64,000 bases of DNA from Microthyrium microscopicum. Taxonomy: Eukaryota. This document shows, in pieces, positions 4,201 through 28,521 of this stretch. Made by a program: the position numbers and the translations under genes. Each line of letters opens with the position of its first letter. The stretch's first letter is position 1. The DNA lies in assembly GCA_010405405.1 (NCBI GenBank), contig MU004235.1, positions 386,538 through 450,537 of the forward strand, in the 5' to 3' direction. The notes beneath the pieces are model-generated. The model made no database searches and was not told the DNA's origin. It saw nothing but the letters and a program-made list of their open reading frames with translations.

Positions 4201-5970
4201 ATGGGCAATTCGCCCAGTACTCAGGCAAAGGCAGGCGGGCAGCCTAGCCCAAGGCCTTCAACGGGTAGTGCGAACCCGCCACCTTCAGCTCACCACATCC
4301 ACCACACTCATTCAGCATCACAACCTACAACCTCTACATCTCTAAGCTCTGTCGTTTCCTCATCTGCTGCTCAGCCATCTGAGAGCTTCGAAATCGCTGA
4401 AGGTCAATCTGTCTCTAATTATCGCGAACGCTCAGCAAGCGCCATCCTTAGGAGCCAAACTGCTGGTCACGGTCACAACCCCACTAGCGCTCCGACCCTC
4501 AGACATATAGATTCTGGTACGAACTCTTCGCGGCTCTCCTCGACGTCTACCTTGGCCATGGGTAATGCCGAGTCCAAGAGCAAGAAAGGCCACGATGCCA
4601 ACCGATTCAGTCCTCCTGCCGCAAAACCCATAGCCGCACCTGCTGTCTCCAATATACATTCCAAACCGAGCGATCCAATATTAGATAACGACTCCTACTT
4701 TGCCACGGCATCAGATCTGAGTCGCCCGCCACGATTGCCTCTGCCTATTCAGGATGAAGTCAGATCGCCAGGCTCTCCAATAATATCACCAACTGACGTG
4801 GCGGACGATCCAATCGATGCAAGTACACAAGAAGCGGCTTTATTGAGTACAACTTCAGTATTGAGTAACACAACGCTTGATGAAGAAGATGTTGGAGATA
4901 ATGTGGATACTGTTCGAGGGGGTGTTCTACCCTCTGTGCCTACCGTGGTAGAATGGAGAGAAGGAGGTAATAAAGTATACGTGACTGGTACTTTTGCCGA
5001 CTGGGATCGGAAATATCGCCTATCAAGAGAGTAAGTCCACCATTACATTGGTTGGTGATACAGCTCTTGGATCAGGGTCAAGCTCGCGGGCTCAATCAGA
5101 CATAATTGACTCGTTGGGTTTGATCTGTTCCTTTGTCAGGAAAACAATGGGCCTTCATACCCATCTCACTTGGACTTAGCACGTCTGAGGATCAAATACT
5201 AACAACATGTAGGGGCCCTGCAGGACCAGGAGTGCTATCAACAACCATCCATTTGCAACCTGGGACTTACCATCTGAGATTCATTGTGGAGGGCGAAATG
5301 CTGCTTTCGAAACATTTGCCAACGGCCGTGGACTTTACAAATTCTCTTGTCAACTACATCGAAGTTGTATCACAAGATACTACACCTACTGCAGCTCTAG
5401 AAAACCTGCAATTACAAAACGATGCTAGTCAGCCAATAAATATTGGTGTTCCAGTCGAAGAAGCAGACCCAGTCCATCCTCCTCAAACTCTTCCCCCAAC
5501 ACCAGAACTCGGACCTACGACTGGGCCTTCGTCGGTTCCTCCTGAGCCAGGTTCTAGTGCAGATCAACAAGGCATCCTATCAGGACTTCAATTCCCATCG
5601 ACACGATACAGCAAGAAAATCCCTCAATTCTTCATTGACACCGATGCAGACGAATCCAGTGAGGAATATTCAAGGGTAATAGAGCTGAGTAATGTTCTAC
5701 CTACACCACCATCATTGCCATCATTCTTATCAAAGAGTATCCTTAACATGGCAACTCCGATGAAGGACGATGCCAGTGTGCTTGTCAACCCAAATCATAC
5801 AGTGCTCAATCATTTGGCTACCAGCTCGATTAAAGGTGGAGTAATTGCCACCAGCATGACCACTCGATATGGCCGAAAGGTAAGTGAAACGAATCGTTTG
5901 ACGTTACATAGCTAATCAAGAACAGTTTGAGACCACGATAATGTACAAACCAACGCACCCAGGAGCGTAG
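4201..5970 (+). CDS. GAL83: SNF1/AMPK complex beta subunit (Gal83/Sip2-like); exons 4201-5030, 5213-5879, 5926-5970
   Basis: MGNSPS start; CBM48 motif VEWREGGNKVYVTGTFADW...LQPGTYHLRFIVEGEM; AMPKBI tail PPSLPSFL..LVNPNHTVLNHLATSSIKGGVIATSMTTRYGRK|FETTIMYKP. Canonical introns keep the frame. Confidence 0.93.
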
Positions 5971-6696
5971 TCGTAGTAATTGCGCACCATTTTTCTCCAA
6001 CGGCATATTTGCCAACGCTGCATCAAACACGACTCCCAACGCCACCATCCATACCAAATTTCGGTTATTGACGAATGATTACGAGAAAAACCATAAGCTT
6101 GATGTTTATGTTCTCGTGATACCCTTCTCCTTGGGACCAGCTTTCGGACTTTTGAGTGGTCCTTGACAAGAAGATACTGGATGATGGCATGAGGCCTCGA
6201 GAGCCCACAAAAAATGATTTGGATACCGTAGGGTTCTAGTCACTAAATAGTAAATCTTGCCAAACTCTGGGATTGAATATATTGATGTAGAAAAATCAAT
6301 TCCATAACTCAATTGAGTTGATGGACTGTGACTTGCACATGTCAATTCTATATATAGCGCGCTTAGTGTGGAGTTTAGCGCGAAAGCTCGCGTCGCGCTT
6401 ATCGCCTTCTTTCCAACAACCTACTGGACCAAGTAGAACGACATCAAAATGTCGGAAGCATTTTTTCTTTCGGAACTCGAGACCAGCGAGACGATACAGT
6501 GGTTCTCCCATCAAACACGATGCTTGTCATCACACTGTTTGAAGCAAAACCGTTGACAGTTTGTAGTCGAAGTAGCGTGGGTTTGAAAATGGATCTCAAA
6601 CGACAGGACGAACGCGCCTGATTGTACACTTTATGCCTATATCTCTGCCATGTGTGAAGATGAACTGCCTATTTTCTACTCGCCACTACACCCTCA

Positions 6697-8967
6697 ATGG
6701 CTGACTTCAGGATCGCAAAACGGAAATGCCGGCCGGGCATTACGGTCGAAGAGGCGCTGGACGATGATCGCAACATGATTCCGGCGCTCTCAGTCCTTCA
6801 GCATACCACTCAATTCGAGAACGAACTATGGGACCGCCGGTCACAAATTGAGGAAGTCGTGTCTCGCCATCTCGGAATACCTACTTCCGGATTTGAGCTG
6901 ACCTCACCCGATGAGTGGCTCACCGGAAGCTTCAACTTATGTATTTTCATACACTCAATCAAGGGCCCGAACCTTCCCGGACGAGCCATACTTCGAATCC
7001 CGCTGCCCTTTAATGCGGGTGAGACCTTCAGTCTTGGTAGTTGCGAAGAAAAACTCCGTTGCGAGGCAGCAACATATATCTGGCTGTCTCGTCACTGCCC
7101 TGCTATTCCAATTCCTCGCCTTCTTGGCATAGGATTCCCGGGTACTCATTCCTTCTCGGCTATCACAAATGAAACCTTGTGGAACCGACTAGTATGGCAG
7201 CTACGACACGGCTGGGCGTGGTAAGTTCCTTTCCCACACTGACAAAGCTCTTCTAAAACATCTGATGACGCCCAGCGCACCAGGTAGCTCCCATAGCATT
7301 CGATGGCTTGCCGAGTGTGTTATGGGTTTTACAAAGACAGTTCAAATGATGCTTTCGGCGTGTGGGATCCTGAACTAACCGATTGCAGGCTATGGGGAAG
7401 AGCGGTAAGATTCCATGCCAACTCACTATTCTAGATCATATCTGATCAAACTCAACCCATCATATCTCCCATCGCAGTGCGATGCCTTCCATAGTATGCG
7501 TTGCTGCACAAGTGCTACGGGGTCCATCGAGTGCGGTGGGTGTATTACGACTTTTACCACGAAAGAACCTCATGACCGTTTCCAAAGTTTACTGGCTCTG
7601 TTTGTTTTCTGATTCCAAGCCATTGCAGGATACTCTTGCTCCATTCTCCATTCACCATAGACACAGCCTACACGATGTCGGCTATCTACTCATCGAATAC
7701 GTGGAGGAAGGGAAAATGCTGTCATGCAGCTGGAAACAGCATTGCCAAGACCCAATTCGACGAGCGAACCTCTATCACGTAAGATTTTCGCCTGTGAAAC
7801 AATTCTCGATCGTAAGGTTACACTAACAAGTCCAGGGGCTTGCCAAAATCATGCTCAGTCTCGGAAAAGTACCGCTTCCTCGAATAGGCTCATGGATCTT
7901 AGGACATGATGCTACCATTAGACTCACGAATCGACCTTTCTTCGATCTCACCGCCCTGTGGAATCAACACAAGATCCCAGCTATAGTGCCAAGAGAAAGA
8001 ACTTACACGTCAGCTAAGGCCTTCGTTCATGATGTGCTACGCTACCAAGACAATCGAATGCGCCATCAGCCCAACTCCATTCTGTCCGAGAAAGACGGCA
8101 TCTACCAACTCGCAGCGTTAGTGGGCCTGCGTGATCTACTTTCACTGTTTTATGGCAGCTCAAGTGGGACATTTGTTCTCAACTTAGTGGACATGCACCA
8201 AAGTAACATATTCGTCGACGAAAACTGGAATATTACCCGCCTGATCGACTTCGAGTTTGCGCCAGTCTGTCCCATTGAAATGGTCGGTATTCCGGTGAGA
8301 TTTCCCCGTGTCAAATCACATTCCCTGACCGCAACCGATGAAAGCAAAAGCATTGGATTTCCCATCGCGCTCGATGGTTACCATAAGATGCGTCTCTTAT
8401 CGAGTGCTATGATGCCATATGATGCGATGGGAGATGATGCTTGATGGTTTGATCCTGAACAGATCAAGTGGCCTTTTCAGAGCGTGTTAACTTTGATCTC
8501 AATCTTACACTTATCAATTCCAGCCTTGGCTCAGCTCTATGGGCGTTGATCAACTAGAAGGATCCAATCGAGACGAGTACAAAGTACTGTATGACGAGTT
8601 CGCCGACATCGTTGAGCAGGAAGAAGAAGCCGGTCAGATGAGCAACTCGTACAGTCAAGGTTTACGTGAGAGCTGGGCTAGTGGACAGTTCTTTTTCAAC
8701 CTGGCTTTGCGTAGCATCAACGCGTTTCCAGCCATATTTGAAGAGCATCTTCAATCGAGGTACTTTGAGAAGTTCGATTTTGATATGGATGGCCTGCAAT
8801 GGGCGGAGCGTTGGGATGAAGGCGAAGATCTAATGGATTTCATAGCCAGGAAGAACAAGGATCGCGAGAGATATGAAGTCCAAATTCGCGAAATTTTCAG
8901 TGCGGCTAAGGCGGCGGAAGGGATGAAAAGCACTGACGATGAGCTATCAAGTATCGGAGGCATCTGA
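6697..8967 (+). CDS. Fungal aminoglycoside-phosphotransferase/protein-kinase-like protein; exons 6697-7220, 7389-7404, 7629-7778, 7836-8294, 8524-8967
   Basis: Motifs WLTGSFNLCI, EEKLRCEAATYIWL, GYLLIEYVEEGKMLS, FVLNLVDMHQSNIFVDENWNITRLIDFEFA, PPWLSSMGVDQL. Four GT-AG introns, with a 16-nt micro-exon, join the ORF pieces in frame. Confidence 0.82.
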
Positions 8968-9447: not shown

Positions 9448-10958
9448 TCAGACTCTTTTCAGTAGTTTCGGGTTGAGTCTCAACCTCGCAATAAGCACAA
9501 AAGCCGTCGACAAGAGCGCCACGCCACCAGCATAAAAGATGGCCGGGCGATAGGAGCTAATACTGCCCTCAGTGACGCCGCCAGCCGCCTGGAGCAGATA
9601 GCTGGCTATAGGCGCCCCCAAGAAGTACCCAAAGCTCCATCCAGTAATCGTCATCCCCATGGCCACTCCAGTCCTAGCCGGTCCGTAGATTTGCGTGACA
9701 ACAGTAGGTAATGTAACGAAAAAGGCACCGTTCGCTATGCCATTGATGACGGCAAATATCGATAGCGTCGGGAGCATATTGCTGAATGGCCATATGGCGA
9801 ACATACTGAGCGCATTCAAAAATGATGCGAGCAGAAAGGTGTTGACTGCACCAATTCGGTCACATAGGATCCCGCTTCCTAGTCGGCCGAAGGCTGCACA
9901 TAGGTTGAAGCCTGCCGCGAGATATGCCCCAGTTGTTGAAGAGAGTCGAAGTGATTGTGCAAACAATGGTAGGAAGTATGGTGGCACATATAGCGCGAAA
10001 ACACCTATTGATGCCGCCAGACTGGTTGTTCAATTAGAAATAATATCAAAGATCAACACAAGACTTGGCACTCCAGGTACACCCTTGGAATGCTACATTG
10101 CAGAATTCCATCATTGTAATATTCCAGTGGAGCACCATCTTGCTAGAATACGTTGAATGATTTTGCTCAGGAAGATACTTACAAGATGAAGATAAACTCC
10201 CAGTTTCGAAAGAGGGAAAAGTCGAAGAAGGAAGCGTTTCCTCGTGGAGGGTTGAGTTCTTTTACTAAGAAAGCCACCGGGATGCCTGTTACGAGGCATG
10301 ATATTCCAAGGATGCGAAAGGTCCACGCTGTTCCAACGTTGATAATGGACTTGTTCAGAGCAATGCTCAAGACAAATCCACCGATACCACCGGCGAATTT
10401 GATCAGTCCGTTTGCAAGGCCAAGTTTACTGCTGAAGAACTGTGAAGGAAGTATGCTCGCTACCATGAAACACAAGCTACTTCCAGTGCCGTAAAGAAGA
10501 CCTGCCGTTCCAAAGAGACCGGCGATGTTATTGGTTGTATACCCAGCTGTTAACTGGCCAACACCAAGCATAGTGATGCCGAGTAGTGCTGCGTTTCGAG
10601 CACCGGCAAAGCGCATGAAACGTACTGCGAGCAAGCTGAAGATGACAGTGCATGCCATAGCTAGGGAGCCAACGAAAGAAAGTGTTGATGTTGAAGTCAG
10701 GCCTTCATTGAGAAGAGCGGCCTGCATCACACCCCATGAGTTGTTAATGCCGTTGAACCAGAAGGTGAATATGGAGCTAGCGATGAGCGTGTTCCAAGCT
10801 GAAAGCCCACCATCGGGTATGGAACTGACGGCTTCAGCTGGAGGAGAAGCTTCGTTGTCTCTTGCTCTCTGGGTACTGATGCCATCCCATTCTTGTTCGG
10901 AGGAGTTGGTTTGTGGTGTGCGTGTGAGACGTTGAAGCTCGAGTGTAGTTGTGGACAT
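9448..10958 (-). CDS. MFS transporter, monocarboxylate-porter (MCT/Mch-like) family; one intron 10182-10022
   Basis: PDGGLSAWNTL, GINNSWGVMQ, PSQFFSSKLGLANGL, GRLGSGILCDRIG; many hydrophobic segments; the intron restores the frame (FIF-LAASIGVFALYVPPYF). Confidence 0.88.
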
Positions 10959-14687: not shown

Positions 14688-17600
14688 TTAGTGCGCACGA
14701 TCTTCATCAATGCTTTCCCCGCGTTTTCCTTGTCTGGATGACGTCGAGCGGAAACGACGAGACGGGCTCGACGGGGAGTGTGGTGGTGTGGAAGGGCTAC
14801 TTCGGGTGCTCATGTTCGCTAATGGCGACTTGATCCGGCCAACGGGTGTCTGGGGTCGCGGTAGAAGGTTGGTAGTGTCTAGGGGAGGAGTAGACACATT
14901 TGAGTCGGGTGTTGCTACCGCACTCGTGGAGAATTCTGCCGGTGCATAGTCCGCAGATGGCGGAGGGCCGGCCAGCGCTGATGCTGGAAAGGAGGTGGCC
15001 AATGGAGAAGACGGCTTGGAGTTGGGAAGGCTGTTATGTGGGAATGACCCATGGACTGGTGACGATGGCGCAGAAGTTCGAGAGCCCGTCGGTGGAATGT
15101 CAATGAGTGAGTTGTCTTTCAGAGAGCGAGCCCGTATACTCTCCCGCGAAGAATGACGACTTATTGGAACGGAAGGACTCTTGACATATGCCGTTTCCAA
15201 GCCAGGAGCATATCCACCACGCGAATAACGCTCATACCGAACATCAGTCGAAGACTCGTTTTGATACTGTTGGAAATCGCGAGTGGACCAACTGCCGCGA
15301 TGCACGACTGCGCCGTAAGGTAGACTAGACCCTGACATGCGAGACATGTTCGATCGCATACTATTTGCAATTGACCCAGTCCGTTTGAGTCCCGTGCTAG
15401 GACCTGCTGGCAAGACAGAACCTTCCAGCAAGTCAATATCGGAGGCTTCATTCCGAGGATCATTCAGAATGTCTTTCTGAAACTCCGCGTCTTCATCCTC
15501 AATCTTGGCCATACGTTTGACCGAGTTCACCGAGAAGTAAGGCTCCTTGGGAATCTGAGGTAACTCCATGACAGGCTCGAGTGGAGGCGGAGTCTTTGGT
15601 CTGTCTGTAGCTGCTTGCTGGATATGAGCAAAATACCGTTCTCGATATGGCATCCAGCGACGGGGTCTGATTTGCTCCCGATTTCTTGTAATAGAGAAGT
15701 AACTCGAGATGGCGCTCAATACAATGCATATAAGCAAGGCAATGGTTAATAGACCTTGTATGACAATTATAATGATTCCAATGGCAGTTGCTGGAATCCG
15801 AGCAATGTTGAAATCGATATCAAATGCTGCGGAAAGGGCGACAGTGGTAACTTTGCTGAATCCAAGTAGGTAGACCATGACTATGTTGAGACGTTGTCCT
15901 TCGTATGGCTTGAGCTTAACAATAACCATGAAAGCCACGAATTCGATGATTAGAAGGCAGAAGACTTGTACAAGTGCATGCCCAGAGGCTCCGCCTAAGA
16001 AACAAGCTCGAACAAATTCGTAAACTGCCCATAGTGCAAAGAACCACCATCTCGAACGACGAAATCTTGATGCCAGCCAGCCAAACTTGAGAATGTAATC
16101 TTCGTCATCATGGACTGGCGTTTCGCTTTCTTCGGGATTTCGACTAATTCTCCAGGATGGAAATTGTTGAGAAAAGACCTTGTCCGAGTCTTGGACTTTG
16201 CTTCCGCGATAGAAATGGTACCATGGGATATATTTCAGGCTCTTTGATCGCTCGGCAAAGATGACATCTTTTTCAGATACCCAAGTGCCTTTTCGCATGC
16301 GATAGTAGCAAGCGTAGCCAACAATTCCAAAGATTCCAAGGAGAAAGAGGACAAATATAATGGCTCCGATGGCAATTGCGCCTGGAGCTCCATCATAGGT
16401 GAATTGAAAGATTGTTAGGAAGGTCATCATGAAAAAAGCAATGTAGCAGATTCGAAGCACTGCTGCAGTAACATATCTCATCCAGTGTGCTCGGAAGAAG
16501 TTCAATCGTTCTGTTTTCAGGACCTTGAACCGACTGAGCCCGTCTACCACGAATTTGAAAATGGTTATCGATCCAGCTACGATCAAAATGCAGATCAAAA
16601 GCCATATAAGTCCGGTGAGTAGAGCATTGGCTGCTGGAATATCCTGCTGAGACAATGTCCCAGCGAATCCAGAGAAGTTTCCAGGAAGAGGTAATCCTGT
16701 TCGAGCCTTGCTTCCGTAATATTTGTATCCACTTGTTGAGTTGATCAGCGACCGTTTGACAAGATTTAATCCAGATTTCAATTGAACAGGAGCAAGCTCT
16801 CGCTTCATCAACGTGGCGTTCATGGCTCGCTTATAAATCTTGTGAATGTCATAGCCGCCTCCCACATTCGGTGCATAAGCTCCAGTAGCTGCTGCTCCGA
16901 CAGCTAGAGTATCGCCGCTGTATTTTCCCATGAACTTGCTCAGTGAGTCTTGCATACCTGAGGTATATATCATTCCAGCACTCCAAGCATAATTGGACCA
17001 GAATGCGACCAAGACGCTAGGCCAGTTCATGGAAAGGGCTCCAGTGAAGTAGATGTGGTGGTATACGGCAAATACGACCAACACGGAAAGTGAATGAGCG
17101 TAGTGGGTACGCATTTCGGGGACATTCTGGCCATATACTGATGTTGCAATGGAGGCGACAATGGCAATAAGTGCAAATATCCCGAGAATTGAGCCTACTG
17201 ACTCTGGTTGCCTGAATGTCGCTCCATTGGTAACCACGGCACTGTAGCAAGCTATTTGGCTCTGGGTTGAATTTGCAAATATACGCAGAATTGCCTGTCC
17301 TTCAAAATCGGGTATGCTGTATGCAATATCTGAAAATATTAGTCTCGCTATATACTCTTGTCGAAGAGGTAGTTACTTGGAATTCCAACGACGTCTGCTG
17401 GACCCAGTGGAATTTGCGCGCTAATTTCAATAGGAACCGTTGATTTCACCGGACACAGACTGGAGCACTAGGTCAGTATGTGTTGTCAACAATCAATGTT
17501 TGGTGTAGCAATTACCTGGTTTGGTCGGTACCGCACGGATTCCATGCAATGTCAAACCGGCTTTCTCCATACGCGTAAACCCCGAGATAGACTGCAAAAA

Positions 17601-17934
17601 GTTAGCAACTTTCGGGCATATTGAGGTGTTACGTACGCATAACCGCCTCGGAAGTCAGATTGCTGTCTCCAGAGATATGGAAAGTGATGGTCATGTTATC
17701 AATGTAGAGAGCAGCATCGAACCTGTCGAGGTTGAGAGAGCTCTTCTGGGTGCCCAAACAGTCGCCAAAGTCGCCAGTATAGAGCGCGGGCTTTCGATTA
17801 TTTTCCAGATAGATAAGTTCATTGTCGTTGGTAGTGTATGGAATGAGTCCGGCGGTATCTTCAGTTTTGGCAAAGATGGGTAGTGTTATCAAAGATATGA
17901 GGGCGATTGCCAGGGCAGTCCAGAAACGCGCCAT
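14688..17934 (-). CDS. TRP-like/FLC (flavin carrier, Pkd2-like) membrane protein with N-terminal ML-like domain; three 5' introns
   Basis: Signal peptide, RKPALYTGDFGDCLG, RFDAALY, IAYSIPDFEGQAILRIFANSTQSQIACYSAVVTNG, LVAFWSNYAWSAGMI, KFGWLASRFRRSRWWF; S/P-rich tail. Confidence 0.88.
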
Positions 17935-21002: not shown

Positions 21003-22856
21003 TCAAGCCACCTGCAATCCTTGCGGCAACATCTGATCAAACTGCTGCTCAAACTGCTCCTCCGGCACAACCTTCTCCCATCCCCACTGAATCATCTCCA
21101 GATTATTCACATTTATATACTCCGTCCTTATCTGCCATCTCCCCATAACGCCCTCCGGTTTCTGCATAAAGTTCACCGCCCGTCCGTGTCTTGTGCTCGC
21201 GAGCGGCGGCACATCCATCCTCCACACGCGATCTTTCTCCAGCGGCACGGTATTCTCGTTTGGATCACCATCCGGTCCTTTAGGAAGATTCTCTTCTTCG
21301 ATCTTCATAATATGCTGGCACAAAATTCTGCTATAGCGCGCTTGGAACATTGCTTCGCGCTCGGGACAGGTGCAGAGGAGGTCAATTGCGCGTCGCCTTA
21401 GCAAAGGCCAGCGGCATTTCAGCGCGACCATGTGGAGGATTGGGATGATGGGCATTTCGAAGGCGAAACTTTTGCTGGCGGCGTCGGGGAAGCGTTGGCG
21501 GTCGCTTATTGTGTTGGCGACTAGATCTAGCATGTGCGCGAAATCAGAGCGGTAGGTGTCCCAGAGAAGTTCGGATGGCATGATGGACACTTCTGTCCAG
21601 ATTCGTAGGGCGTACCAGGCTGCGTGCACGAGACCGACGCCTATTGGGCTACAGCCGCCGGGGAAATTTGCGAGCGAGGAGTTGGTTGAAGCGACGAGGG
21701 CGTCGTATTCGAGGCGCCATTGGTCTAGGTCTACGATGATACGGAGCTGTTCGACAAGACATTCTTGCGGGCGTTCAGGGAGGTAGCGCGTGTGGATGTG
21801 AGTGCGAGAGAAGGTTATGTAGATGCCTGCGATTTCGACGAATTGGGATATACTTTGCTCCATGTTTACGGCTGGTTGGCGCGCGGGCTTGAGATTATCG
21901 GGGATGGTTGAGAGGTGGCTGACACTGAAGACTTCGGTGCCAAAGATGGAGAAGCCCATATTGAGCCAAGTGATGGTCGGTACTATGACATCTTCCAGTA
22001 GCTCCAGTTCGGAGGATGGGAAGAGTTTGGGGTTTTTGCGAATTGCGTCGAGAAGTTGGAGACCGCCGCGGATATTTTTGCGCGCGGCCATTACATCGTG
22101 TCGGACGAAGTCTATGCAGACAAACAAGATGCATGTCATGAGTGCTACGAGAACATTTGTCTCTGGGTCTTCGAGATATGCCATGAGATGTCGGATGGCT
22201 TGGTTATGCGACTCTAGTGCAAATGATCGATCCAGTTCGCGACCAGAGTCGGCCTTTGCTATGATGCACTCATTTTCGAAAATGGAGGACAGCGTGATCA
22301 TTGCAGTCCGAAGTGCAGGGTCATTGATACCAAAGTGAAAGATTGCCTGCTTCCAGAATTTGCCATAGAAATACCCGGAGAATATCGGAGCTGCCTGAAC
22401 ATGAAAGAATTCCAGAGCGCGATTGTTCTTTTGGCCTCCTATGTCAAAAAGGCTCAATTCAAGTGGCGAGCCCACCTGTGCTTCCATTGGTGAATTGTCG
22501 TTGGACTCACCAGCGCTGATTTGGAGACGATTGCGCCGATTTGTTGTTTGATAACCTGGACATTGGATTTCCGATGCCATGCACCTGGACTTTAGTTAGT
22601 GATGAACTCCAGCGGTGGCAAGATACGACTACCTGAGACATGACGGCCTCACTTCATCACACTTTACATGTTTTGCTCTATCATTTGTTAGAAAAACTGC
22701 TTGGTCAAGGAAATGTTCCCATGAACAAGCCAAGACCACCTACTTGCAAGCAGCACAACCGGCTCGTGACTTTGGTTTGCTGGCTCGTTTTCTGATGGGG
22801 CCTCTTTTTTGACGTTCCTCGCTCGGATTTCGAGTGCGAGATGATGTTGTCGACAT
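21003..22856 (-). CDS. Zn(II)2Cys6 transcription factor with fungal-specific C-terminal domain; two introns split the zinc cluster
   Basis: Spliced KSRAGCAACK|AKHVKCDEVRPSCLR|CMASEIQCPGY gives a complete C6 cluster. Also RALEFF, ALMTCILFVCIDF, VALKCRWPLLRRRAIDLL. Confidence 0.9.
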
Positions 22857-27227: not shown

Positions 27228-28521
27228 ATCATCTGAAGATGACGTCAAAAGCAGAAACATTTGGAGGCCTGTTGGCTGGCTTATCATCAGTGTCCATCGT
27301 CGTGCTGCGCCACAGTCACCAACACCAGCTCTCTGACATCAAATAACGGCGTCGTGTTCGACGGATTTCGCCCTACGAAGGCGGAAGTCTACAACATACT
27401 CTACAAACTATTAAGTGCGTTGTTTACCATCGAGTGCGATAGTTATCAACGCCGCCACTGCTTGAGAAGTCTCATCGCTTTCTCGACGTGCCAAAGGCCA
27501 GCCAGATTAGGTTGGCTCGTCAAAGCTGGATTCAAAAGTATGTGATGCGACAAGAGATATGTTGGTTCGGATGTTCCGGTAATATAATACGTTCTAGCTC
27601 CTGGGATTTCTGATGAGGCTCTATGCTAATGCCAATGAAGTTATTTGGCAAAATGCAATGCCTACAACTGGGTCGTTGATTGAGCTGTAATGCTACCCTG
27701 CCAAATGCTACACTACAGATACATCTATCATGCTCTGTTATAGGTCGTGGAATTGTATCATAGGCTACCTCTGACATATTATGATGAAGGGAAGCAATAT
27801 TCAAACACCTCTCTCCAGATTGGCTGAATGCTTTTTGAAAGCTATCTGAATTTCAATCGGGTAATTGAGCAATATTCTGGCCTTATTTACAACGTTTGAG
27901 TCTGTCGTCAACGATGGAACTGCGAGGGTTCAGATGTCCAAGCGATTGATGTGCAGAGTGCCAATAATCCTTAATGAGAGCAGCGAAGTGGAAATACGGA
28001 AGACGTGTGTCGGCAACCTCCCAGAACTGCCTTGTGAATGGCCGCGTTTTTTGAGCTGTAAGGCAGCATTCGATATAAAGGCAATTTGATGAGTGAAATA
28101 GGGCTTGAATAACATGAGTGGCTTCATGCCAATATGGCCAGACAACAAAAAAGTGTCAGTAGATGTCGACGATCCTTTGCCTAAATAAGAGTTCGGGGAA
28201 GTATTTGGGGGTGTGATCGCTGGCGACGGTGAAGGTAACATGCGAGGAACTGCCGCTCACTCTTGTTGCTTGATGGTTTGAGCTTGATCAAAGATGATAT
28301 ATAAAATCGTCGCTGTTTTCCGAATCAAGGACCGATTTCCAGTCCAGGATTCATCATCTCCAGTGTAGGACACTGGCTCAACCTCTTTACATTATAAAAC
28401 CTATCACACTTCACGTTCTATCAGCATGTGTAGGAGCACTAGAGCTTGCACTGAAGCTGACCTGTCTTTTCTCTTTTCCCACCCGCGAGCACGTTGGTTG
28501 ATATCCTCTTTGCCTGGGTTG

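What the first reader, a model, noticed from the sequence alone, without database searches (positions are those of the whole stretch)
7221..8523. Family of related hairpin introns (introner-like elements) inside one kinase-like gene
Seen: three introns of this gene are far longer than the ~50-nt norm (7221-7388, 168 nt; 7405-7628, 224 nt; 8295-8523, 229 nt). Each carries a related inverted repeat: I1 TCCCATAGCATTCGATGG..CCGAGTGTGTTATGGG (7289-7326), I2 TCCCATCGCAGTGCGATG..CATCGAGTGCGGTGGG (7467-7540), I4 TCCCATCGCGCTCGATGG..TATCGAGTGC..GCGATGGGA (8360-8432). I2 and I4 share 5' ends (GTAAGATTCCATGCCAACTCACTATTC vs GTGAGATTTCCCCGTGTCAAATCACATTC). I1 and I4 share ATGATGCTT...GATCCTGAAC. Known: introner-like elements in Dothideomycete fungi are long, fold-back, multicopy introns that decay into ordinary introns. 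Inference: this is a mobile intron family that hit the same gene repeatedly (local hopping), with sequence diverged but pairing retained. A less likely reading is a set of paralogous intron-hosted ncRNAs, since C/D-box-like TGATGA/CTGA words occur.
Basis: partly seen in the sequence, partly recalled or inferred. Interest (0 to 1): 0.85.

Follow-up and report, generated by a model that had tools for sequence, protein, structure and literature searches.

The report
Four related introns in one gene
One fungal kinase-like gene carries four introns that all descend from the same hairpin-bearing, introner-like intron family and sit where related genes have no intron, a known kind of intron gain seen here in an unusually dense cluster.

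Summary
The + strand gene 6697-8967 encodes an aminoglycoside-phosphotransferase-domain protein. It is 100% identical over exon 4 to a Microthyrium microscopicum protein. It has four introns, and transcript-like contigs of a public run support every junction. I1, I2 and I4 (168, 224, 229 nt) are homologous to each other (z 11, 17 and 3.7 against shuffles). Each has a stable central hairpin (z -2.4 to -3.8). The short I3 (57 nt) looks like an internally deleted I4 (z 6.1). None of the four positions holds an intron in the closest homologue loci, while the intron conserved across the family at aa 152/153 is missing here. No other copy lies in the 64 kb window. Three contigs from two runs carry I4-like pieces in other sequence contexts. 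Two published genome-wide screens list this species with zero introner families. Best reading: an old, decayed introner-like element family clustered in one gene. "Local hopping" is plausible but not shown. The C/D snoRNA reading is not supported. This is a new member of a known kind, of moderate interest.

The parts
6697..8967 (+). Host gene: CDS of an aminoglycoside-phosphotransferase-domain (APH / choline-kinase-like) protein of 530 aa. Exons are 6697-7220, 7389-7404, 7629-7778, 7836-8294 and 8524-8967.
   Evidence: The spliced frame is open. Exon 4 is 100% identical to protein P0001, named by NCBI as a Microthyrium microscopicum hypothetical protein. The model is collinear with 19 other homologues besides P0001. 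Pfam matches to APH and Choline_kinase on exon 4 are weak and below the cut-off.
7221..7388 (+). Intron I1, 168 nt, phase 2. A family member with a shortened hairpin.
   Evidence: X5 loose ends join 7220 to 7389. Homologous to I2 (0/1000 shuffles) and to I4 (9/1000). Fold z -2.77.
7290..7326 (+). I1 core hairpin, with a 10-bp outer stem.
   Evidence: -16.7 kcal/mol, z -3.34, 1/200 shuffles fold as well.
7389..7404 (+). 16-nt micro-exon between I1 and I2. Its last 6 nt encode a 2-aa insertion (RA) that all 19 other aligned homologues lack.
   Evidence: X5 loose ends contain exon 1 end + these 16 nt + exon 3. Protein alignment.
7405..7628 (+). Intron I2, 224 nt, phase 0. A family member; its 3' part has diverged.
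   Evidence: Spliced in the X5 contig that starts at 7628. A contig with I2 retained (7388-7657) has depth 90.5 against 543. Aligns to I4 over 139 columns at 64% identity. Whole-intron fold z -0.09.
7468..7540 (+). I2 core hairpin.
   Evidence: -34.0 kcal/mol for 7462-7545, z -2.44, 3/200 shuffles fold as well.
7779..7835 (+). Intron I3, 57 nt, phase 0. Probably an internally deleted family member made of the I4 termini alone.
   Evidence: Joint 7778>7836 in X5. The 5' 27 nt match I4's start at 20/27 and the 3' 30 nt match I4's end at 22/30. Split score is 27 against shuffle mean 8.3 and max 19, 0/1000. It is the highest of 23 introns compared.
8295..8523 (+). Intron I4, 229 nt, phase 0. The most complete family member.
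   Evidence: Joint 8294>8524 in X5 (depth 377). A contig with I4 retained (8265-8552) has depth 173. Fold z -2.84.
8357..8435 (+). I4 core hairpin. The minimum-energy fold of the whole intron extends the stem to about 8337-8455.
   Evidence: -34.5 kcal/mol, z -3.84, 1/200 shuffles fold as well. Extended stem.
8433..8460 (+). Post-hairpin module ATGATGCTT...GATCCTGAAC, shared with I1 (7345-7375).
   Evidence: D18 (10/10) and D19. 3'-flank I1-I4 alignment: 87/2000 shuffles score as high.

Best explanation
All four introns of this gene are members of one old, partly decayed family of introner-like elements. These are spliceosomal introns that were copied into new, previously intron-free positions. 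The full-length form (I4-like, about 230 nt) has three parts. There is a 5' segment starting GTRAGATT, a long central hairpin whose arms carry TCCCATCGC...CGATGG / ...GCGRTGGG, and a 3' segment carrying the branch site and YAG. The spliceosome removes the copies like any intron (shown). The hairpin arms are the best conserved part. They either serve the copying mechanism or shorten the effective distance between the splice sites so that a long intron is still spliced (inferred). With time, copies lose sequence and length. I2 has lost its 3' similarity, I1 has a shortened hairpin, and I3 keeps only the termini and has the size of an ordinary intron. The clustering of four copies in one gene is not random (inferred from 0 of 14 other introns in the window being members). 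Its cause is open: re-insertion in cis, or repeated targeting of this gene.
For: (1) Real introns. Joints and loose ends in the X5 contigs match all four junctions.

(2) Common descent. One search gives I2-I4 z 17, I1-I2 z 11 and I1-I4 z 3.7. One search places the signal mainly in the core (z 13, 6.2, 3.7), with weaker collinear flank similarity (60/2000, 58/2000, 87/2000). I3 against the I4 termini gives z 6.1, 0/1000, and ranks first of 23 introns.

(3) Length. These introns are 168-229 nt against 45-62 nt for 14 heuristic control introns.

(4) Stable hairpins. One search gives z -3.3, -2.4 and -3.8. The 9 outer-stem pairs are kept in all three introns. One pair changes on both sides (A-U in I1, C-G in I2 and I4) and three change on one side. 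I read this from the folds.

(5) Gained positions. Of 80 homologue loci from metagenomes, the site is read through without a break in 47 of 61 covering loci (I1), 51 of 59 (I2), 69 of 70 (I3) and 75 of 79 (I4). This includes all loci with at least 48% identity.

(6) Copies elsewhere. An X5 contig of 213 nt matches 8475-8523 with 8 differences, ends exactly at the 3' splice site and continues into a different sequence. Two X6 contigs match 8355-8402 (8 differences) and 8360-8393 (3 differences) with other flanks.

(7) No segmental duplication. The exons are collinear with the homologues.

(8) No target-site duplication. This fits what Gozashti et al. 2022 say of fungal introners (PMC9860276, passages).

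(9) The organism is a Dothideomycete. The features listed for ILEs match: longer, lower free energy, decay to ordinary introns, and several per gene (PMC3609843 parts 1-2; PMC4457414 part 1 and passages).
Against: [quoted passage not shown] Only three partial outside matches of 34-49 nt were seen, from contigs I could not read in full.
- Two published genome-wide screens list this species with 0 introner families.
- No further copy lies in the 64 kb window.
- Most of the similarity among I1, I2 and I4 sits in the hairpin core. The flank similarity is marginal (p about 0.03 each), so a palindromic repeat that landed in existing introns is not excluded.
- Full-length I2 folds no better than shuffles (z -0.09).
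- The homologue loci are at most 53% identical and orthology is not established. For I1 and I2, 14 and 8 covering loci are ambiguous.
- With three sequences, one compensatory pair is weak evidence of selection on pairing.
Confidence: 0.62

Rival explanations
1. Intragenic propagation only ('same-gene duplication' in the sense of Collemare et al. 2013). One founder intron was copied to three further sites of the same gene. This could happen by reverse splicing into its own transcript followed by reverse transcription and recombination. The family has no real life outside this gene.
For: Four of four introns of this gene are family members, against 0 of 14 short control introns and 0 of 11 long candidates elsewhere in the window. 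No exon duplication is seen. The family-wide intron at aa 152/153 is absent, as expected if a cDNA copy replaced the gene. Published screens found no dispersed family.
Against: Contigs with other flanks match I4 at 83-91%, closer than any in-gene pair (64-76%). According to PMC3609843, same-gene duplicates have ordinary length and free energy, unlike these introns.
Confidence: 0.17
2. A short palindromic repeat (MITE-like, about 40-120 nt) inserted into three pre-existing introns. The introns themselves would not be related.
For: The similarity is concentrated in the hairpin core. The X6 contigs match only the core. PMC3609843 notes that in three fungi near-identical 'introns' turned out to be repeats inserted in ordinary introns. 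A weak look-alike of the stem flank lies in a non-intronic place at 28264-28311 (E 7e-4 and 0.014; E 0.56).
Against: - The I2-I4 alignment starts at the first intron base.
- I3 matches both I4 termini without any hairpin.
- The X5 contig matches I4's last 49 nt up to the splice site.
- All four positions are lineage-specific, so the supposed 'old' introns would themselves be unexplained gains.
- No target-site duplication was found.
- No copy lies in other introns or intergenic DNA of the window.
Confidence: 0.13
3. Paralogous intron-hosted non-coding RNAs: C/D-box snoRNA-like, or hairpin precursors of small RNAs. On this reading the hairpin is conserved because it is a functional RNA.
For: There is a sub-threshold SNORD36 match at 8429-8501 (24.3 bits, E 0.78). 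The words ATGATGC and CTGA are shared by I1 and I4. The hairpin arms are the best conserved parts.
Against: The match is below Rfam's gathering score of 30. In both introns the C-like and D-like words are only about 15-20 nt apart, and ATGATGC is simply repeated three times in I4 (D3). No RNA data on small products were available.
Confidence: 0.04
4. Chance resemblance among long introns.
For: I1-I4 similarity alone is modest (9/1000).
Against: I2-I4 and I1-I2 were each reached by 0 of 1000 shuffles. The motif CCCATCGCNNNCGATGG with up to 3 mismatches occurs 17 times in the window against 4.3 expected, and 9 of the 17 matches lie in the three long introns.
Confidence: 0.01

Closest known systems
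Introner-like elements (ILEs) of Dothideomycetes (van der Burgt et al. 2012, recalled via citations; Collemare et al. 2013 PMC3609843; Collemare et al. 2015 PMC4457414)
   Same: Canonical spliceosomal introns that are two to four times longer than ordinary fungal introns. They have stable predicted hairpins with compensatory change and sit at gained positions. They decay in sequence and length towards ordinary introns. They lack target-site duplications. Several can occur in one gene (two ILEs 145-626 bp apart in four genes). The fungal class is the same.
   Different: - Classical ILE families have tens to hundreds of near-identical copies. Here the copies are 64-76% alike and only three partial outside matches were seen.
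- Published screens list the species with 0 families.
- Four members lie in one gene, and two are only 16 nt apart.
- The order (Microthyriales, my recollection of the taxonomy) is not among the species named in the papers I read.
Same-gene intron duplications (SGD) and low-copy introns (LCI) in fungi (PMC3609843)
   Same: Related introns lie within one gene without duplication of the flanking exons. [quoted passage not shown]
   Different: SGDs and LCIs have the length and free energy of ordinary introns. Here the introns are long and structured, and look-alikes exist outside the gene.
Sister stwintrons and related symmetrical introns of Hypoxylaceae (Fekete et al. 2021, PMC8469720; abstract only)
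   Same: Proliferated fungal introns with a highly symmetrical, potentially double-stranded RNA structure. They are integrated seamlessly at new positions, without flanking tandem duplications.
   Different: In those introns the inverted repeats are terminal (45-55 nt) and many copies are nested twin introns. Here the hairpin is central and I saw no nested donor.
Algal and protist Introners that are DNA transposons (Huff et al. 2016, recalled; Gozashti et al. 2022 PMC9860276; 2025 PMC12130899)
   Same: A mobile sequence that creates an intron on insertion.
   Different: Those elements show target-site duplications and/or terminal inverted repeats and also insert outside genes. No target-site duplication was found here, and the inverted repeat is internal.

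Membership tests
Introner-like elements (ILE) | Canonical spliceosomal intron (GT..AG, branch site) that is actually spliced | tested here: met
   Joints and loose ends in X5 contigs support all four junctions. GT..AG ends are seen.
Introner-like elements (ILE) | Markedly longer than regular introns of the same genome | tested here: met
   168, 224 and 229 nt against 45-62 nt for 14 heuristic control introns. I3, at 57 nt, is the exception and is read as a decayed copy.
Introner-like elements (ILE) | Stable predicted secondary structure (lower free energy than expected) | tested here: met
   Core hairpins give z -3.34, -2.44 and -3.84. Whole introns give -2.77, -0.09 and -2.84, so I2 fails as a whole intron.
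Introner-like elements (ILE) | [quoted passage not shown] | tested here: inconclusive
   Three contigs with other flanks match I4 pieces at 83-91%. There is no copy elsewhere in the window. No genome is held. Published screens report 0 families for the species.
Introner-like elements (ILE) | Occupies gained (lineage-specific) intron positions | tested here: met
   The sites are intron-free in 47/61, 51/59, 69/70 and 75/79 covering homologue loci. Orthology is not established.
Introner-like elements (ILE) | No target-site duplication or terminal inverted repeats (as stated for fungal introners in PMC9860276) | tested here: met
   Exon-end against intron-end similarity equals that of controls (2.75 against 2.57). 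The inverted repeat is central, not terminal.
Same-gene duplication by segmental duplication | Flanking exon sequence duplicated together with the intron | tested here: not met
   The protein is collinear with 19 other homologues and has no internal repeat. No exon-level direct repeat longer than 17 nt was found.
MITE / DNA-transposon Introner | Terminal inverted repeats plus target-site duplication, with copies also outside genes and in both orientations | tested here: not met
   No target-site duplication and no terminal repeats. Only one doubtful non-intronic fragment was seen, at 28264-28311. Genome-wide orientation is not testable here.
C/D-box snoRNA (SNORD36-like) | Score at or above the Rfam gathering threshold, with C and D boxes at the ends of a 70-100 nt RNA closed by a terminal stem | tested here: not met
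   24.3 bits against a gathering score of 30, E 0.78. The box-like words are about 15-20 nt apart.

The most novel reading that the evidence does not exclude
The gene records intron transposition in cis. An inefficiently spliced, hairpin-bearing intron was repeatedly reverse-spliced into its own host transcript, and a cDNA of that transcript then replaced the gene. The same event (or events) would have installed the new copies and erased the short ancestral intron at aa 152/153, which lies only 66 nt upstream of I1. I2 and I4 are still retained in a share of the transcripts. If so, this locus would be a natural footprint of the long-postulated mechanism of intron gain by reverse splicing, reverse transcription and recombination, for which direct examples are lacking.
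Probability: 0.15. Interest if true: 0.8.

Novelty: new member of a known kind. Interest (0 to 1): 0.5.

Why it matters
How fungal introner-like elements copy themselves is unresolved. The papers read here call them an outlier among introners because they lack transposon hallmarks and seem confined to genes.

This single gene holds four members of one family in four states of decay: full length, lost 3' part, shortened hairpin, and termini only. All four sit at positions that are empty in relatives. That is a compact illustration of the proposed 'birth, life and death' of fungal introns.

The case also shows that similarity-based genome screens, which list this species with no introners, miss old families.

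The clustering and the loss of the neighbouring ancestral intron make the locus a reasonable place to test re-insertion in cis.

Tried and rejected
- Whole genome: none is held for this window, so no genome-wide copy count was possible.
- Earlier findings of this scan: nothing for this genome or this sequence.
- RNA holders: no listed holder is on record as RNA. Run X5 is only guessed to be RNA, though its spliced joints show it contains cDNA-derived contigs.
- More copies in the window: blastn and two nhmmer profiles found none. The weak hits at 6497-6530 (E 0.32), 27421-27448 (E 1.2) and 28271-28311 (E 0.56) are not significant.
- The same profiles against the 80 metagenome loci (387 kb): no hit.
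- Eleven other long candidate introns of the window: unrelated to the family and to each other (no pair with z > 4).
- Base pairing between hairpin arms and the exon next to the insertion site (a group-II-like targeting idea). Complementarity at the real junctions is ordinary: 0.08-0.96 of all CDS windows score as high.
- Target-site duplication: only I4 shows one (ATTCCG before the intron, ATTCCAG at its end). The family mean equals that of controls.
- RNAalifold on the three cores: MAFFT misaligns the short I1 hairpin, so only a 6-bp mini-stem is predicted and the result is uninformative.
- Rfam: two sub-threshold snoRNA matches only.
- Literature search for intron work on this species: 7 papers, none on its introns.
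- Supplement file 13 of PMC12130899 was not searched.
Full report
**1. What is there**

The region lies in a + strand gene. Its exons are 6697-7220, 7389-7404, 7629-7778, 7836-8294 and 8524-8967. Spliced, they give an open frame of 530 codons.

Exon 4 has weak, sub-threshold Pfam matches to Choline_kinase and APH. It is 100% identical to a 526-aa protein that NCBI names as a hypothetical protein of Microthyrium microscopicum, and UniRef as an aminoglycoside phosphotransferase domain protein. The organism is therefore a Dothideomycete fungus.

The protein is collinear with 19 other full-length homologues. The deposited model differs from mine only at the I4 donor, where it lacks four residues (VGIP) that the homologues have and that the RNA contig supports.

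**2. The junctions are real**

No genome is held, and no listed run is on record as RNA. Run X5 is guessed to be RNA and its contigs are identical to the window. It behaves as a transcript assembly:
- A contig joins 7778 to 7836, skipping 57 nt (GT..AG).
- Another joins 8294 to 8524, skipping 229 nt (GT..AG).
- The contig ending at 7220/7221 continues with the 16 nt of exon 2.
- The contig starting at 7628 is preceded by the end of exon 1 plus exon 2.

Contigs that retain I2 (7388-7657, depth 90.5 against 543) and I4 (8265-8552, depth 173 against 377 for the joint) also exist. None covers I1 or I3. Contig depths are crude, so I take this only as a hint that the two longest introns are spliced less completely.

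**3. The three long introns are homologous**

Local alignment against 1000 dinucleotide shuffles gave:
- I2-I4: score 33 against a mean of 9.7 (z 17, 0/1000), aligned from the first intron base over 139 columns at 64% identity.
- I1-I2: 23 against 8.9 (z 11, 0/1000).
- I1-I4: 14 against 9.2 (z 3.7, 9/1000).

Splitting the introns into 5' flank, core and 3' flank (2000 shuffles) shows that the core carries most of the signal (z 13.0, 6.2, 3.7). The flanks contribute weakly but in collinear order: 5' I1-I2 60/2000, 5' I2-I4 58/2000 and 3' I1-I4 87/2000. The other three flank pairs show nothing.

The arm motif CCCATCGCNNNCGATGG, with up to 3 mismatches, occurs 17 times in the window against 4.3 expected. 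Nine of the 17 matches lie in the three long introns.

**4. The hairpins**

The core hairpins fold at -16.7, -34.0 and -34.5 kcal/mol, with z -3.34, -2.44 and -3.84. Whole introns give z -2.77, -0.09 and -2.84.

In the folds, the nine outer-stem pairs formed by CCCAU(A/C)GC(A/G) are kept in all three introns. One pair differs on both sides (A-U in I1, C-G in I2 and I4) and three differ on one side. With three sequences this is compatible with selection on pairing but does not prove it. RNAalifold was uninformative because MAFFT misplaces the short I1 hairpin.

**5. New: the short intron I3 belongs to the family**

The first 27 nt of I3 match the start of I4 at 20/27, and its last 30 nt match the end of I4 at 22/30. 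The split-alignment score is 27. That compares with a mean of 8.3 and a maximum of 19 in 1000 shuffles that kept the first 6 and last 3 bases fixed.

Per nucleotide the score is 0.47. The maximum is 0.29 among 14 short control introns of the window and 0.20 among 8 introns extracted from homologue loci. The 14 controls were picked by eye from the 119 rows of a heuristic scan and are not verified by RNA.

I3 therefore looks like an I4-type element that lost its whole interior. This is the end state that the ILE literature predicts.

**6. The positions are lineage-specific**

A scan of metagenome contigs with an alignment of 15 homologues returned 80 fungal loci at 27-53% identity. tblastn with the spliced protein gave these results:

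| Site | Loci read through in one frame, no break or stop, out of loci covering the site |
|---|---|
| I1 | 47 of 61 |
| I2 | 51 of 59 |
| I3 | 69 of 70 |
| I4 | 75 of 79 |

- The I3 exception has a 7-nt gap. The four I4 exceptions are one sequence family with a 14-nt gap.
- The remaining I1 and I2 loci are ambiguous. They are distant paralogues in a poorly conserved stretch, next to the common intron.
- All loci with at least 48% identity are continuous at the four sites.
- Most loci have an intron at about aa 152/153: 30 show an HSP break of 35-199 nt and 18 more are read through with stops or an insertion. 16 are continuous.
- The window's gene has no intron at aa 152/153.

Orthology is not established and no close relative was sampled. 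So the gains and the loss are lineage-specific but undated.

**7. Copies elsewhere**

The window holds no further copy, and eleven other long candidate introns are unrelated. The laid contigs, however, include pieces of I4 in other contexts:
- An X5 contig of 213 nt matches 8475-8523 with 8 differences. It ends exactly at the last intron base and continues for 30 nt unlike exon 5.
- Two X6 contigs match 8355-8402 (8 differences) and 8360-8393 (3 differences) with different flanks. The 30 loose letters behind 8393 still share a 10-mer with I4.

X6 also holds three pieces of the gene itself without any difference, so the same organism is in that run. These outside pieces are closer to I4 (83-91%) than any in-gene pair. 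I could not read the contigs in full.

**8. What it is not**

- Not a segmental duplication: the exons are not repeated.
- No general target-site duplication. Only I4 has ATTCCG before the intron and ATTCCAG at its end.
- The arms do not pair with the neighbouring exon more than with random CDS windows.
- Rfam gives only a sub-threshold SNORD36 match at 8429-8501 (24.3 bits against 30, E 0.78). The C-like and D-like words shared by I1 and I4 are about 15-20 nt apart, too close for a C/D RNA by my knowledge of that family.

**9. Comparison with what is known**

Collemare et al. 2013 (PMC3609843, parts 1-2 read) define three classes of duplicated fungal introns:
- same-gene duplications, of ordinary length and free energy;
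- low-copy introns;
- high-copy introner-like elements, which are about twice as long, have lower free energy and compensatory mutations, and decay to ordinary introns.

Collemare et al. 2015 (PMC4457414, part 1 and passages) report four genes with two ILEs 145-626 bp apart, and ordinary introns of 50-55 bp. Gozashti et al. 2022 (PMC9860276, passages) state that fungal introners lack target-site duplications and terminal repeats, are biased to genes, and have been read as RNA-based. Fekete et al. 2021 (PMC8469720, abstract) describe symmetrical proliferating introns in Hypoxylaceae, also without flanking duplications.

The present introns meet the length, structure, gained-position and no-duplication criteria. 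The copy-number criterion is open. The supplements of both Gozashti screens list this species with zero families (file 13 of the 2025 paper was not searched). My search for intron work on this species found nothing relevant. So the family is old and/or low-copy and falls below those pipelines' thresholds.

For a rough age, take 64% identity between I2 and I4. A Jukes-Cantor correction gives about 0.49 substitutions per site. With the rate of 1.3e-8 per site per year quoted in PMC12130899, that is on the order of 20 million years. This is an inference, not a measurement.

**10. Clustering**

Outside this gene, 0 of 14 control introns belong to the family. Even at the 95% upper bound of about 0.19 for the family's share of introns, four of four in one gene has a probability of about 0.001 (my calculation). 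The cluster is thus not random.

It could reflect re-insertion in cis, with the missing aa 152/153 intron as a possible mark of cDNA-mediated replacement. It could also reflect repeated targeting of this gene. The closer outside relatives of I4 argue against a simple recent hop. Only a genome-wide tree can decide.

**11. Verdict**

The introner-like interpretation is the best supported (about 0.6). 'Local hopping' is unproven, and the snoRNA reading is rejected. This is a new, decayed member of a known kind in a species scored as introner-free, with an unusually dense cluster. Interest is moderate.

Noticed in passing
window 8283-8294: The deposited protein model (P0001, 526 aa) lacks four residues (VGIP) at the I4 donor. 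The homologues have them, and the RNA-like contig joint 8294>8524 supports them. The public annotation probably uses a donor 12 nt too far upstream.
   Followed up: partly
window about 7150-7155 (codons 152/153): Most of the 80 homologue loci have an intron here (30 HSP breaks, 18 more read through with stops or an insertion, 16 continuous). This gene has none. It lies only 66 nt upstream of I1.
   Followed up: partly
window 7399-7404: The last 6 nt of the 16-nt micro-exon (AGAGCG, encoding Arg-Ala) form a 2-aa insertion relative to all 19 other aligned homologues, directly before the I2 donor. It could be a footprint of the insertion, or a donor that shifted by 6 nt.
   Followed up: no
window 7388-7657 and 8265-8552: Transcript-like contigs retain I2 and I4 (depth 90.5 and 173, against 543 and 377 for the spliced forms). 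No contig covers I1 or I3. This may mean less complete splicing of the two longest introns.
   Followed up: no
window 28264-28311: A non-intronic stretch upstream of a + strand gene shares a 15-nt exact word with I4's post-hairpin segment. In reverse it shows 82% identity over 34 nt with I2's pre-hairpin segment (blastn E 0.014 and 7e-4; nhmmer E 0.56). It is either a doubtful solo fragment of the family or chance.
   Followed up: partly
window 6497-6530: About 170 nt upstream of the start codon of the same gene there is a weak look-alike of the hairpin 5' arm (TCTCCCATC..CGATGC). The nhmmer E-value of 0.32 is not significant.
   Followed up: partly
window 5031-5212 (+), 10022-10182 (-), 22585-22743 (-), 17330-17636 (-): Other long candidate introns (182, 161, 159 and 307 nt) have good splice signals and long open flanks. 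Their fold z-scores are -2.07, -1.26, -1.43 and +0.60. They are unrelated in sequence to the family and to each other and are not verified by RNA. They may be decayed members of other families.
   Followed up: partly
window 8216-8366: A DNA contig of another coded run (X9, organism E) covers the exon 4 / I4 junction with 3 differences in 151 nt. I4 is therefore also present in a slightly divergent lineage.
   Followed up: no
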